Shown here in pieces: positions 46,401-49,400 of a stretch of 64,000 nucleotides of DNA. Numbering within the stretch: the first letter of the stretch is position 1; each line of letters begins with the position of its first letter. Position numbers: made by a program. The stretch lies in assembly GCF_053078305.1 (NCBI RefSeq), contig NZ_CP166879.1. One strand, 5' to 3'.

Positions 46401-49400
46401 CGTGATACGAATAACAGGCCGACGTCACTCTGTGACGTTTATGCAAGTATTCTCCAGTATCACAGTCCTGAAATTATTCAGTTTCTCTCAGCGGAATTTC
46501 AGGCATCTGTACAGGCTTTTGGGGCGGATGCCATCATTAAACGCCACCGCGTGCATAAAGCATCAGGCACACTGCAATAAGGAAAAACAAAATGGCTAAA
46601 CGTGTTACAAAATTAAAGGCCGCAGCCGAGGCTGCACCGCAGACCCGCGAAGAAGTCAGCCGCGATATCCGTACCCTGGGCGATATTCAGCGAGAGGCGC
46701 TACGGCTGGAAACGGCGATGAATGATGAAGTGGCAGAAATCACCGCCCGTTATACGCCGCAGATTGAAAACCTTAAAAAAGAAATCAAAGTGCTTTTTAA
46801 GGGGATTCAGGACTGGTGCAAAACCAACCGCGATGAGCTGACGAACGGCGGCAAAACCAAAACAGTCAATCTGACCACCGGCACGGTGTCATGGCGGCTG
46901 GGAACGCCATCATGCAGCGTCAGCCGTGATGTGGAAGGTGTGATTGAAATGCTGCGCCGTATGGGGCTTGAGCGATTCATCCGCACGAAAGAGGAAGTGA
47001 ACAAGGAAGCGGTCCTGGCGGAGCCGGATGCGGTGAAAGGGATTGCCGGTATTAAGGTAAATAAAGGCGCTGAAAGTTTTTATGTCGAGCCTTTTGAACA
47101 GGACGCCGGACTGAATAAATAACACCACATTAAATCTTTAAATATCACATCGTTTTAATTATGGCGCTCGCGTCAGGGGACTGCCTGCGCCTGTAAACTG
47201 AAAATAAGGAACAGGAAATATGGCATATTTTTATTTCAAATTAGACCGTGTGCAGACAAATAAATATTTCACCAAATATCAACAGACTGTTTTACCGCTA
47301 CGCAACAGTATTCTTCGGGCATTACTGAAAAATACAGGCGCTGCCGGATTGCGCTTAAAGCCGTTCGCCATGGACAGAATCAGTGAGTTTTATTTTTCCG
47401 GTGCTCTGCCTGCGGGCTGGCGTAAGCGCGATGATGTGGCTTTTATCGGGGACGGACCGTGCTTTATTGCCAGACCTGATGAGTTATGCCCTGAAGGACC
47501 GGCGATTGCCGCAATGGTTGAAGCCGCTGAACGCGATTTAAGAAAGCGTCCTGATTTCCTTGTCTGGCTCTGTGAAAAGCTGGGGGTAATGAGAATCCCC
47601 TCCATGTTTAACATGGACTCCTGGTGGACCCCGTCACTCTCCCGTGATGCCCTGTGCGTGGTGTTTAAAGTAGGCGCTTATGGCAGGGAAATAAACGGGT
47701 GTATTCCTGAAGAATGCCAGGAAATTAAACATTCTGAATATGTGGCGCTGACGGAGGAATAATTCATGATTGATGCAAAAGTGCTTGAAGGGGTTAAAAA
47801 CTGGCTGAGTATTTACGGGCGTCTGACCTGCGGAGTTCTGGCTGAAAAAATGAATATGCCGCCATCCTCGATGGTTTATTTTCTGCGTGATGCGGTTGAT
47901 GCCGGGGTGCTGACGGAATGTAACGGTTTTTATGATATTCCGCGTCCCCGCCCGGTGCAGCCGGTTCGTCGCAAATGCAGCCAGGAGTCTGCGGCTGATG
48001 ATGTTCAGTGGTGCAGCTTCAGAAAATCCCTGCCGTGGATTGAGGGGCATGATATTCCGTCGATGGCGTGGGAATTTGCTCAGGGCATACTGACCTGTGA
48101 AACCGTTTATGTGGTGGCTGAAGTTGATGAGCAGGCCATGAAAGAAGGTGTACCCCAGTTTGTGATGGCGTATATCGACATACGCCTGGGTGTCATTATC
48201 TGCGGTTTAAGCGGCTGGAATATCACCGGACATGTTCTGCGTTACCTGATTGTTGACCGGACAGCGGCACCGGCCGCGATTTCTGCGGAGGTGGCGTAAT
48301 GTTCTTTAAAACATCGAACCCTGCCGCGCTGGCCGCGTGGCAAAAATATCAGCAGGACTGCCAGACGGTAAAAGATGAGGCGAAACGCCTTGAGGCCGTG
48401 CTGAATGTTGCGTGCCGGTCGGTATTTGAATTCAGTATCAGTGGTTTTTGTTTTAAGGGACTGCGTTTTACGGAGGACAAATATCCTTTTCATCGTGATT
48501 TATGGCGAAAACCAACTGCGTCGAATGGCTGGAGCTGCACACCGCGCACATCACGTATTCCCAAAGCCCTGCGCGTTGCCTCTGACGAACTTAACAGTCT
48601 GTGGCGTGAATATTCGCCCGTCACGTATGCCAGAACCGATGCACTGTTGTTCTGGCTGGGCATTGATTTCTCGGCAATCCTGTTTGGCCCTGTGGAGTGG
48701 TTCTGCGTTGACGATGTGATTTACCTTCAGTGCGGCGTAAAACCCGCAAAACAGAAAATGACCGAAATTCTGTCTGATGAGTTTTATGCTGCTGAAAAGC
48801 GAGTCAGGGGGTGATGCATGATGATATTACAACCCATGGGGAGAAAAGGCAGTGCACCCGCTCATGTTCGCGCATGGACACCTGAAGAAGATGCGCTGCT
48901 GATTGCGCTTTATCCATCCACCCCGGTTAAGGATATTGCTGTCAGGGTAAAAAGAAGTTTCTGGGGTGTACATCACCGGATTGTTTTATTACGCGGCACT
49001 TACCCGGAGTTGCTCAAATGCAAACGTCCAAGATTTAAACATGATGAAGATAAATTTATCCGAAAAAATGCCAGAACGATGACCGGTAAGCAAATAGGAG
49101 AATATCTGGGGCGAGACCGGGATTCTGTCCACAATCGGGCGCGATATATTGGCGTAAGCATGAAAAAATACGGAGAATTGCTGCCCTTCACCCGTATATC
49201 TGATGATGATGTTCGTCTTATTCGTGAATTACGGGATGCTGAATCACCACGACGTCTTACCTTCCGGGAAATAGGCGAGAAATTTGAATTATCCGAGAGT
49301 ACGGTAAATTTTATTTATCACCATCGCCGGACTGCCGAAGATGTTGTATTACGGGAGTTAATGCCATGATAACGACATTATTTGTTGAATCAGACGAGCC

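What the first reader, a model, noticed from the sequence alone, without database searches (positions are those of the whole stretch)
47220..49369. Compact four-gene block of 171-183 aa proteins ending in a multi-HTH protein
Four similarly sized genes are translationally coupled (4-nt gap, TAATG overlap, 3-nt gap). The last has a Myb/SANT-like WTPEEDALL motif and two further HTH-like segments; the second has a winged-helix-like N-terminus. The block could be a regulatory or host-modulating module.
Basis: inference. Interest (0 to 1): 0.5.

Follow-up and report, generated by a model that had tools for sequence, protein, structure and literature searches.

The report
Mu-like prophage early accessory gene cassettes
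These are four real, tightly packed early genes of a Mu-like prophage in E. coli: a conserved pair (phage Mu gp11/gp12 homologues) flanked by two exchangeable cassettes, the last a three-repeat Myb-like DNA-binding protein. They are not a fixed four-gene module, and what they do is still untested.

Summary
The four ORFs exist as described (180, 177, 171 and 183 aa) and are under purifying selection. They lie in the early operon of a Mu-like prophage, between gam and gemA, in the "semi-essential early" accessory region.

- **g2 and g3** are the homologues of Mu gp11 and gp12 and are almost always adjacent.
- **g1** is a divergent DUF5420-type gene. In relatives it is present, replaced by a 24-39% allele, duplicated or absent.
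- **g4** is present as ~95%, ~70% or ~50% alleles, or absent. Its family also sits in P2-like prophages with none of the other three genes.

Structure prediction gave these folds:
- g2 is an acidic minimal winged helix plus a small beta-rich Gp11_C domain.
- g4 is three three-helix HTH repeats. Repeats 1-2 match c-Myb R2R3, and repeats 2-3 match Mu gp9.
- g1 and g3 share one alpha/beta topology with no solved relative. It resembles many ~170-200 aa prophage proteins, some named Eac.

No match to defence, structural or replication families was found. The likely roles are early-phase DNA binding (g4) and host-factor binding (g1-g3); these are inferred, not shown. The finding is ordinary but tidy, of modest interest.

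The parts
47220..47762 (+). g1, 180 aa. Divergent member of the DUF5420 (PF17457) lineage, phrog_2260. Variable cassette. Predicted alpha/beta fold with the same topology as g3.
   Evidence: - Identification. No direct Pfam hit. A profile search links it to DUF5420 proteins at 23-40% identity.
- Model: pLDDT mostly 80-90.
- Variability: present, replaced or absent in relatives.
- Selection: dN/dS 0.29-0.45.
47766..48299 (+). g2, 177 aa. Homologue of phage Mu gp11 (68% identity), phrog_1949.
   Evidence: - Identification.
- Rarity: only 46 cluster representatives among 1.84 billion proteins.
- Selection: dN/dS 0.15-0.27.
47766..47936 (+). g2 residues 1-57: minimal winged-helix domain, acidic (pI 5.0).
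   Evidence: - AF2 helices 4-17, 22-28 and 33-45, strands 50-52 and 55-57, pLDDT ~90.
- pI.
48033..48266 (+). g2 residues 90-167: Gp11_C domain (PF25754), a small beta-rich domain.
   Evidence: - Pfam E 4e-40.
- AF2 pLDDT ~90.
- The same domain is fused to other N-termini in other proteins.
48299..48814 (+). g3, 171 aa. Homologue of Mu gp12 (55% identity), phrog_2314. Close homologues carry PF26885. Same predicted topology as g1.
   Evidence: - Identification.
- Model.
- Secondary-structure agreement with g1 along a sequence-only alignment.
- Selection: dN/dS 0.17-0.23.
48818..49369 (+). g4, 183 aa, pI 10.0. Three tandem three-helix HTH repeats, phrog_323. Variable cassette.
   Evidence: Identification and family. 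Model. Selection and pI. Mosaic boundaries. Also found in P2-like prophages.
48881..48994 (+). g4 repeat 1 (residues 22-59), Myb/SANT-like. The WTPEEDALL motif lies just upstream of and into helix 1.
   Evidence: AF2 helices 22-31, 37-44 and 48-59. c-Myb match.
49040..49147 (+). g4 repeat 2 (residues 75-110), Myb-like. First half of the Mu gp9-like core.
49202..49360 (+). g4 repeat 3 plus the C-terminal helix (residues 129-181). Weak AsnC and sigma-70 region 4 type HTH hits. Second half of the Mu gp9-like core.
46592..47122 (+). Context: Mu Gam homologue. It is followed by the only sizeable gap (97 nt) before g1.
49366..49677 (+). Context: g5, 103 aa. Its start overlaps g4's stop (ATGA). It follows g3 directly wherever g4 is absent.
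41823..41851 (+). Context: promoter-like site in the position of Mu Pe. It lies between the c-type repressor gene (41169-41729, - strand) and the ner-like gene (41915-42145).
   Evidence: This is a consensus match only.
51377..51400 (+). Context: first strong intrinsic-terminator-like hairpin on the + strand downstream of the block, just after GemA.

Best explanation
The four genes are part of the accessory ('semi-essential early') segment of the early operon of a Mu-like prophage inserted in the E. coli chromosome.

**Shown:**
- They are real genes under purifying selection.
- They lie between gam and gemA, with no predicted internal promoter or terminator.
- They evolve as separate cassettes. 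g2-g3 (Mu gp11-gp12) is the conserved core. g1 is an optional extra gene of the DUF5420 lineage whose predicted fold has the same topology as g3. g4 is an optional gene that also occurs in P2-like prophages.
- g4 is built of three Myb/homeodomain-like three-helix repeats with no other domain. The repeats are an added N-terminal repeat plus a two-repeat core homologous to Mu gp9. The same kind of repeat serves as the DNA-binding part of phage HNH endonucleases.

**Inferred:**
- All four are made from the early promoter within minutes of induction or infection, not in the lysogen.
- g4 binds a specific DNA sequence as a monomer and acts as a regulator or occluder of host or phage DNA sites.
- g2 has an acidic winged helix plus Gp11_C, and g1/g3 have a fold shared with Eac-like prophage proteins. 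These three more likely work by binding host proteins (host takeover or counter-defence), like the other characterised Mu accessory genes.
For: **Location and order.** MuA, MuB, Gam, GemA, Mor and lysozyme surround the block. There is no internal promoter-like or terminator-like site on the + strand within 47.2-49.4 kb; the first good terminator is at 51377-51400.

**Real genes.** PHROG E-values are 1e-58 to 1e-105 and dN/dS is 0.15-0.45.

**Cassette behaviour.**
- tblastn over 56 IMG/VR loci plus Mu and SfMu.
- Sharp identity breaks exactly at the g1 and g4 borders.
- Two tandem g1 paralogues, g2 alone, and g3 without g2 all occur.
- About 20 g4-family loci have no g1, g2, g3, gam or gemA. 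There the gene lies between a DNA methyltransferase and a P2 gpA-type initiator.
- In complete E. coli genomes g1 is found in 213, g4 in 231 and g2-g3 in 231, plus 86 more distant copies.

**g4.**
- c-Myb R2R3 match, E 2e-6.
- Mu gp9 match, hhalign probability 97.9%, E 6e-13.
- Three three-helix bundles, pLDDT 80-91.
- pI 10.0.
- Two-repeat matches inside mycobacteriophage HNH endonuclease genes (PHROG 1891).

**g1/g3 common fold.**
- Same order of elements in the model.
- End-to-end collinear hhalign alignment.
- 72.7% agreement of secondary structure along that alignment, against a mean of 33% and a maximum of 53% for 161 circular shifts.
- 58 AFDB50 matches with E<1e-3, several named Eac, Ead/Ea22-like or DUF5420.

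**Precedent.** Accessory genes of this region act on the host: Mu E6/Mup07 is gnarl2 (bioRxiv 10.1101/2023.04.06.535777). Kil, Gam and GemA are from my own knowledge of Mu.
Against: - No function was tested, and no paper in the searchable library mentions these families.
- The g1/g3 relationship is weak by sequence alone: hhalign E 0.037 for a single comparison, BLASTP E 0.72. It could not be checked by structural superposition.
- Both models came from artificial fusions (g1-linker-g3, g2-linker-g4) with shallow alignments of narrow diversity.
- Within the E. coli lineage that carries this prophage the four genes do travel together in 213 of 231 genomes, so a joint function in that lineage is not excluded.
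- DNA binding by g4 is inferred from fold and charge only.
Confidence: 0.55

Rival explanations
1. The four genes form one co-functional regulatory or host-modulating module whose products work together.
For: - Tight spacing and Shine-Dalgarno sites are compatible with coupled translation.
- The four genes co-occur in 213 complete E. coli genomes.
Against: - That co-occurrence lies within one closely related prophage lineage (95-99% DNA identity).
- In more distant relatives g1 and g4 are absent, replaced or duplicated, and g4 occurs alone in P2-like prophages.
- The tight spacing continues into g5-g9 and is general to the operon.
Confidence: 0.1
2. The proteins serve the phage's own development rather than acting on the host. 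The old genetically defined, unassigned Mu functions in this region would fit: arm (amplified replication) or cim (control of immunity). g4 and/or g2 would bind phage DNA, such as the ends, operators or middle promoter.
For: - The position is in the Mu early operon next to the transposition genes.
- g4 is a probable sequence-specific DNA binder and a relative of Mu gp9.
- arm and cim map to the semi-essential region but have no assigned ORF (my own knowledge of the Mu literature, not checked here).
Against: - g4 and g1 are dispensable and exchangeable among closely related prophages whose A, B, c and ner genes are alike.
- g4 also occurs in P2-like phages with a quite different replication system.
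- g2's winged helix is acidic.
Confidence: 0.2
3. g4 is a stand-alone remnant or relative of a homing-endonuclease DNA-binding module. Its patchy distribution would reflect selfish mobility, or protection of a target site, rather than a regulatory service to the phage.
For: - Matches to the DNA-binding parts of HNH endonuclease families and genes: PHROG 1891 and 6156, PADLOC 'HEase' E 0.006, and mycobacteriophage HNH endonucleases at 35% identity over residues 18-114.
- Cassette-like presence or absence and allele replacement.
Against: - There is no nuclease domain or motif; the whole 183 aa is taken up by three HTH repeats.
- dN/dS of 0.22-0.26 indicates a maintained function.
- The gene is always in frame with the early operon.
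Confidence: 0.1
4. g2's N-terminal domain is a Zalpha-like reader of left-handed nucleic acid.
Against: - Equal scores go to SelB, MarR, ArsR and APC2 winged helices.
- Sequence identity is about 12%.
- In my manual alignment to human ADAR1 Zalpha, the contact residues N173 and Y177 fall on V37 and R41.
- The domain is acidic.
Confidence: 0.03

Closest known systems
Phage Mu gp11 and gp12 (Mup11/Mup12; formerly E10-E12 and E13), uncharacterised early genes after gam
   Same: - g2 is 68% identical to gp11 and g3 is 55% identical to gp12.
- The order is the same, directly downstream of gam, and the stop/start junction overlaps in both.
- g2 has the Gp11_C Pfam domain.
   Different: Mu has no g1 before gp11 and no g4 after gp12. 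The function of gp11 and gp12 is unknown, so the homology names the genes but does not explain them.
DUF5420 (PF17457) proteins, such as Shigella phage SfMu gp11
   Same: g1 occupies the same slot (between gam and the gp11 homologue). It is 24-40% identical to DUF5420 proteins and shares the N-terminal YFK motif and the C-terminal IKHSE(F/Y)(I/V)A(I/L)TEE motif.
   Different: g1's own clade is not recognised by the Pfam model (no hit at E<=10).
Phage Mu gp9 (E8) / PHROG 323 'transcriptional regulator, D5-like'
   Same: g4 residues 66-166 align with the whole 99-aa gp9 (34% identity, hhalign probability 97.9%). g4 matches phrog_323 at E 1e-58.
   Different: g4 has an extra N-terminal Myb-like repeat. 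It sits after the gp12 homologue rather than before gam. This prophage has no gp9 homologue in the Mu position.
c-Myb R2R3 DNA-binding domain (PDB 1h88, 1mse, 1gv2)
   Same: The g4 family profile aligns two consecutive repeats with Myb spacing (residues 18-106, E 2e-6). The repeats are predicted three-helix bundles.
   Different: - Only the first of the three regularly spaced tryptophans of a Myb repeat is conserved (W20; alignment).
- The third repeat resembles AsnC or sigma-70 region 4 type HTHs instead.
- This is a bacterial-virus protein with no other domains.
DNA-binding modules of phage HNH homing endonucleases
   Same: The repeat type is shared: PHROG 1891, and mycobacteriophage Thibault gp103 region at 35% identity over residues 18-114.
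   Different: g4 has no nuclease domain.
'Eac protein' and Ead/Ea22-like proteins of lambdoid/P22-like prophages (names as given in AFDB)
   Same: The predicted g1/g3 fold matches many ~170-200 aa proteins so named. Foldseek E is 1e-7 to 1e-8 and TM-score 0.6-0.7 on the target. Gp11_C of g2 is also found fused to Ea22-like N-termini.
   Different: - Sequence identity is only 12-19%.
- The search output does not say which half of the fused query matched.
- These proteins are uncharacterised too.

Membership tests
Phage Mu 'semi-essential early' (accessory) region genes | Located in the early operon between the transposition genes A/B and gemA/mor, on the same strand | tested here: met
   MuA 42148-44235, MuB 44307-45239, Gam 46592-47122, the block, GemA 50863-51372, Mor/C-type 51442-51867.
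Phage Mu 'semi-essential early' (accessory) region genes | Dispensable for phage growth in the laboratory | not testable with these tools
   The only indirect evidence is that g1 and g4 are absent from otherwise similar prophages.
Pfam Gp11_C (PF25754) | Significant match to the family HMM | tested here: met
   g2 residues 90-167, E 4.3e-40, full model length 1-78/78.
Pfam DUF5420 (PF17457) | Significant match to the family HMM | tested here: not met
   No Pfam hit for g1 even at E<=10.
Pfam DUF5420 (PF17457) | Demonstrable homology to family members | tested here: met
   tblastn E 9e-38 to SfMu gp11, annotated DUF5420. In the joint alignment and profile search, g1-clade proteins and PF17457-carrying proteins are recovered together.
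Pfam PF26885 (Mu gp12-type) | Match to the family HMM | tested here: inconclusive
   The Pfam library behind profile_search gave no hit, apparently because it predates this family. Precomputed annotation lists PF26885 for homologues that are 95% identical to g3.
Myb/SANT DNA-binding repeats | Significant sequence match to Myb repeats | tested here: met
   g4 alone scores only E 0.62 against Pfam Myb_DNA-binding. The family profile hits c-Myb R2R3 at E 2e-6, and several family members carry PF00249/PF13921.
Myb/SANT DNA-binding repeats | Three regularly spaced tryptophans (or aromatic residues) per repeat forming the core | tested here: not met
   Only W20 is invariant in repeat 1. Repeat 2 starts with F/W76. 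The other positions are aliphatic (alignment).
Myb/SANT DNA-binding repeats | Three-helix bundle with an HTH formed by helices 2-3 | tested here: met
   AF2 gives three helices per repeat, pLDDT 80-91. No fold search specific to g4 could be read, because winged-helix hits filled the list.
HNH homing endonuclease | HNH catalytic domain | tested here: not met
   Matches cover only the DNA-binding portion of the endonuclease profiles. The whole protein is HTH repeats.
Zalpha (Z-DNA/Z-RNA binding) domain | Conserved contact residues in helix 3 (Asn173, Tyr177 of ADAR1) and the wing (Pro-Pro-x-Trp) | tested here: not met
   A manual alignment guided by the model puts V37 and R41 at the Asn/Tyr positions. 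The wing has NGFY with no Pro-Pro. This rests on my own alignment, not on a tool.
Known anti-phage defence systems (PADLOC) | Match to a defence-protein model | tested here: not met
   No hits for g1-g3. g4 has only a weak 'HEase' hit, E 0.006.
Four-gene functional module (operon-within-operon) | Co-occurrence of all four genes across related phages | tested here: not met

The most novel reading that the evidence does not exclude
g1 and g3 are ancient paralogues. Together with DUF5420 and Eac-like proteins, they would belong to a large, unrecognised superfamily of early accessory proteins of temperate phages whose fold has no solved representative. Arranged around the acidic winged-helix/Gp11_C protein g2, they would form a complex that captures a host factor, for example a counter-defence device, during the first minutes of Mu-type replication.
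Probability: 0.2. Interest if true: 0.6.

Novelty: new member of a known kind. Interest (0 to 1): 0.3.

Why it matters
The practical value is housekeeping. The work gives names, domain maps and evolutionary units to four 'hypothetical proteins' that sit in more than 200 complete E. coli genomes, mostly Shiga-toxin-producing strains. It also shows which of them belong together (g2-g3) and which are interchangeable cargo (g1, g4).

If the inferred roles hold, three things follow:
- g4 would be a compact phage-borne Myb-like DNA binder shared between Mu-like and P2-like prophages.
- The g1/g3 fold would link Mu gp12, DUF5420 and Eac-like proteins into one family worth a crystal structure.
- The old unassigned functions of the Mu accessory region (arm, cim) might find their genes here.

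Tried and rejected
- **g1 versus g3 by sequence.** BLASTP (E 0.72) and shallow hhalign (E 0.06, N-terminus only) were not convincing. Deeper alignments gave an end-to-end but still weak alignment. The claim of a shared fold therefore rests mainly on the predicted topology.
- **One alignment of a four-protein fusion with unfused homologues.** It was misaligned by MAFFT and discarded (A5).
- **g5 as a relative of Gp11_C or DUF551.** Pfam gave E 0.28 and hhalign E 0.076 over 11 columns, so this was rejected.
- **P0223, an apparent gp12-Mor fusion protein.** It is the N-terminal half of Mu gp12 joined to Mor, most likely a deletion derivative, and is not evidence of a functional link.
- **Other negatives.** NCBIfam, PADLOC and Rfam gave nothing relevant. 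Literature searches for Mu gp11/gp12, DUF5420, PF25754 and PF26885 found nothing. Two look-ups matched 'phage mutant' rather than phage Mu.
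Full report
**Where the finding lies**

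The window from about 40.9 kb onward is a Mu-like prophage on the + strand. In order it carries:
- a c-type repressor gene (41169-41729, - strand)
- a ner-like gene (41915-42145)
- MuA (42148-44235)
- MuB (44307-45239)
- five small ORFs
- a Gam homologue (46592-47122)
- the four genes of the finding
- five more small ORFs
- GemA (50863-51372)
- a Mor/C-type activator (51442-51867)
- a lysozyme gene

This is the layout of the phage Mu early operon. The finding sits in what the Mu literature calls the semi-essential early (accessory) region. PMC8705779 describes that region as long, poorly conserved and coding for small proteins of unknown function.

The same 2.15 kb is found at 95-99% identity in about 213 of 5426 complete E. 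coli genomes, mostly Shiga-toxin-producing strains. It is also in a 'Mu-like phage' inserted into Stx-converting phages. RefSeq annotates the genes as hypothetical, with the last one labelled 'DNA-binding', 'AsnC family' or 'SANT/Myb-like' protein.

**Check of the observation**

The four ORFs are at 47220-47762 (g1, 180 aa), 47766-48299 (g2, 177 aa), 48299-48814 (g3, 171 aa) and 48818-49369 (g4, 183 aa).
- Each start is preceded by a Shine-Dalgarno-like sequence.
- All four match phage protein families strongly: phrog_2260, 1949, 2314 and 323, with E from 1e-58 to 1e-105.
- Comparison with related prophage copies gives dN/dS of 0.15-0.45, so they are real genes under purifying selection.
- The WTPEEDALL motif, the two further HTH segments of g4 and the winged-helix N-terminus of g2 are all borne out (see the sections on g2 and g4).

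One point weakens the idea of a distinct block. The same tight packing continues on both sides: g4's stop overlaps the start of the next gene (ATGA), and g5 to GemA overlap or abut likewise. The only real gaps in the operon are 97 nt after gam and 69 nt after GemA. The gap after GemA holds the first convincing intrinsic terminator (51377-51400). No promoter-like or terminator-like site on the + strand falls within 47.2-49.4 kb.

**Do the four genes travel together?**

I collected 56 IMG/VR loci with g2 as bait and scored all neighbouring genes by tblastn, together with Mu and SfMu.

*g2 and g3 are adjacent in nearly every locus.*
- They are the homologues of Mu gp11 (68% identity) and gp12 (55%).
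- In SfMu g3 is frameshifted.
- In two loci g2 stands without g3.
- In one locus g3 follows a truncated g1 without g2.

*The slot before g2 is variable.*
- About 22 loci have the g1 allele (over 90% identity).
- About 18 have DUF5420-type alleles only 24-39% identical.
- About 13, and Mu itself, have nothing there.
- One contig has two tandem paralogues.

*The slot after g3 is variable too.*
- About 19 loci have a ~95% allele of g4.
- About 19 have a ~70% allele.
- 3 have alleles near 50%.
- 6 loci, plus Mu and SfMu, have no g4. In those six loci g3 is followed directly by g5.

A sliding identity plot against three relatives shows the breaks falling exactly at the borders of g1 and g4, while g2-g3 stay at 88-99%.

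With g4 as bait, about 20 further loci carry a 38-48% identical gene with no g1, g2, g3, gam or gemA nearby. There the gene lies between a DNA methyltransferase and a P2 gpA-type replication initiator ('nicking at origin of replication'), that is, in the early operon of P2-like prophages.

In complete E. coli genomes g1 is found in 213, g4 in 231 and g2-g3 in 231, plus 86 more distant copies. The four genes are therefore together in one successful prophage lineage, but they are not a unit over any evolutionary distance.

**g4**

The full-length family is small: 32 clusters at 90% identity, all from Escherichia, Salmonella or Citrobacter.

The alignment shows three repeats of the same pattern.
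- A profile of the family matches the c-Myb R2R3 domain over residues 18-106 with Myb-like spacing (E 2e-6).
- Residues 66-166 are homologous to the whole of Mu gp9/E8 (hhalign probability 97.9%, E 6e-13).
- g4 alone gives only sub-threshold Pfam hits to AsnC-type, sigma-70 region 4 and Myb HTHs.

The AlphaFold model has a disordered N-terminus (residues 1-13). Three three-helix bundles follow, at 22-59, 75-110 and 129-169, then a final helix. pLDDT is 80-91. The protein is basic (pI 10.0) and has no other domain.

Two-repeat stretches of the same kind occur inside mycobacteriophage HNH endonuclease genes and in small proteins of Vibrio, Klebsiella and P1-like phages (PHROG 1891).

g4 is thus a stand-alone DNA-binding module: a Mu gp9-like two-repeat core with an added Myb-like repeat. 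It fails one textbook Myb feature, because only the first of the three spaced tryptophans is conserved. I file it as Myb-like rather than as a Myb protein.

**g2**

Residues 90-167 are the Pfam domain Gp11_C (E 4e-40). An exhaustive HMM search of 1.84 billion representatives found only 46 proteins with it. Several of these carry the domain behind one or two winged helices, or behind Ea22-like or coiled-coil N-termini.

The model shows three parts:
- a textbook minimal winged helix (residues 1-57, pLDDT ~90)
- a disordered linker (62-83)
- a small beta-rich C-terminal domain (pLDDT ~90)

The domain is acidic (pI 5.0), with a single basic residue in the recognition helix. I therefore doubt that g2 is a conventional DNA-binding regulator. 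A protein- or ligand-binding role seems at least as likely.

**g1 and g3**

g1 is a divergent relative of DUF5420 proteins such as SfMu gp11. The Pfam model itself does not detect it. Homologues 95% identical to g3 carry PF26885. Both families are confined to enterobacterial Mu-like prophages in the searches I ran.

On reading the sequences I noticed parallel motifs:
- N-terminal YFK / FFK
- C-terminal SE(F/Y)xA
- a central hydrophobic helix

Sequence tests are weak. BLASTP gives E 0.72. hhalign on deep alignments gives E 0.037 for one comparison, but it is collinear from end to end (5-177 against 2-165).

In the predicted model both proteins have the same order of elements: strand, long helical hairpin, beta-hairpin(s), two helices, beta-hairpin, C-terminal helix. 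g1 has one extra hairpin. The model was an artificial g1-linker-g3 fusion with a mean pLDDT of 76.7, and the two proteins were mostly at 80-90.

Along the sequence-only hhalign alignment, 72.7% of 150 columns have the same predicted secondary-structure state. The mean over 161 circular shifts is 33% and the maximum 53%.

Fold searches gave the following:
- Against AFDB50 it matches 58 proteins at E<1e-3. Besides the two families themselves, these are ~170-200 aa uncharacterised proteins from many Gammaproteobacteria. Several are labelled Eac protein, Ead/Ea22-like or DUF5420, and one is labelled Tle immunity protein 4 C-terminal domain.

I conclude, with moderate confidence, that g1 and g3 are distant paralogues of a widespread but unstudied prophage protein fold. 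The search output does not show which half of the fusion each target matched, and I could not superpose the two halves.

**What it most likely does**

Shown:
- position in the early operon
- cassette-wise evolution
- domain architecture
- purifying selection
- absence of any match to structural, replication, defence or RNA families

Inferred from established knowledge of Mu:
- The genes are transcribed from the early promoter, which the repressor keeps off in the lysogen, so they act in the first minutes after induction or infection.
- The characterised genes of this region all manipulate the host: Kil acts on division, Gam on RecBCD, GemA on host gene expression, and E6 (gnarl2) on the O-antigen pathway.

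My best reading is that g4 is a monomeric, sequence-specific DNA binder acting as an early regulator or site occluder. g2, g3 and g1 would more probably act by binding proteins.

The alternatives are phage-directed roles (the unassigned arm and cim functions), a selfish origin of g4 from homing-endonuclease modules, and a true four-gene module. They are weighed in the rival list, and none can be excluded without experiments.

**Comparison with what is known, and novelty**

Every gene belongs to an existing, if uncharacterised, family and is already annotated in hundreds of genomes.

What this analysis adds:
- the assignment to Mu gp11, gp12 and gp9
- the demonstration that the block is a conserved pair plus two exchangeable cassettes
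- the presence of the g4 family in P2-like prophages
- the probable common fold of g1, g3 and Eac-like proteins

That makes it a new member of a known kind (Mu accessory early genes). It is of modest interest unless the g1/g3 superfamily or the g4 regulon turns out to have a notable function.

**Caveats**

- The two structure predictions used artificial fusions. Alignment rows were partly natural pairs and partly arbitrary pairings of homologues, so nothing can be said about contacts between the fused partners.
- The alignments are shallow (24 and 27 rows) and taxonomically narrow.
- Locus counts from IMG/VR include redundant fragments of the same E. coli prophage lineage.

Noticed in passing
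window 40209-41170: The prophage left end appears to be at about 40897 (TGTAACCAGGTGAATCATTTGATACC...), followed by repeated TTTGATACC-like motifs that look like transposase-binding sites. It interrupts a TerC-family membrane-protein ORF (40209-40901, probably yegH) right beside wza and the colanic-acid cluster.
   Followed up: partly
window 4000-14000: A very low G+C stretch (28-38%) of minus-strand genes upstream of the colanic-acid genes looks like an O-antigen biosynthesis cluster.
   Followed up: no
L092 5004-5552; L104 4965-5483 (and about 20 loci, L091-L112): g4-family triple-HTH genes sit in P2-like prophages between a DNA methyltransferase gene and the gpA-type replication initiator, with none of g1-g3. 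The gene is shared cargo of two unrelated temperate phage types.
   Followed up: yes
L178 4001-5127; L158 340-1103; L043/L044: Variant architectures occur around the gp11 homologue: two tandem g1-family paralogues before g2, a truncated g1 followed directly by g3 with g2 missing, and g2 with neither g1 nor g3.
   Followed up: partly
window 49366-49677 (g5): g5 (103 aa, very acidic, pI 4.05) is the best conserved gene of the neighbourhood: 80-83% identical in loci where g2 and g3 are 50-66%. It follows g3 directly when g4 is absent. It has only a sub-threshold DUF551 hit (E 0.28).
   Followed up: partly
window 51442-51867: Only one Mor/C-family activator gene is seen between GemA and the lysozyme gene. 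It is closer to Mu C (39%) than to Mu Mor (27%). A strong terminator-like hairpin (51377-51400) separates it from GemA.
   Followed up: no
window 49650-50042: The ORF called from GTG 49650 overlaps g5 by 28 nt, but its PHROG match starts at residue 15. The true start is probably further downstream.
   Followed up: no
protein P0223 (public database), related to window 48299-48814: This 212-aa protein joins the first 87 residues of Mu gp12 to Mor. It is most likely a deletion derivative of Mu (gp12 to mor) rather than a natural domain fusion.
   Followed up: partly
E. coli OkiPb01692 (NZ_AP042554.1 4562659-4566075), the closest match to window 47220-49369: The 99.5% identical copy of the block is interrupted by an IS600-family insertion sequence.
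   Followed up: no
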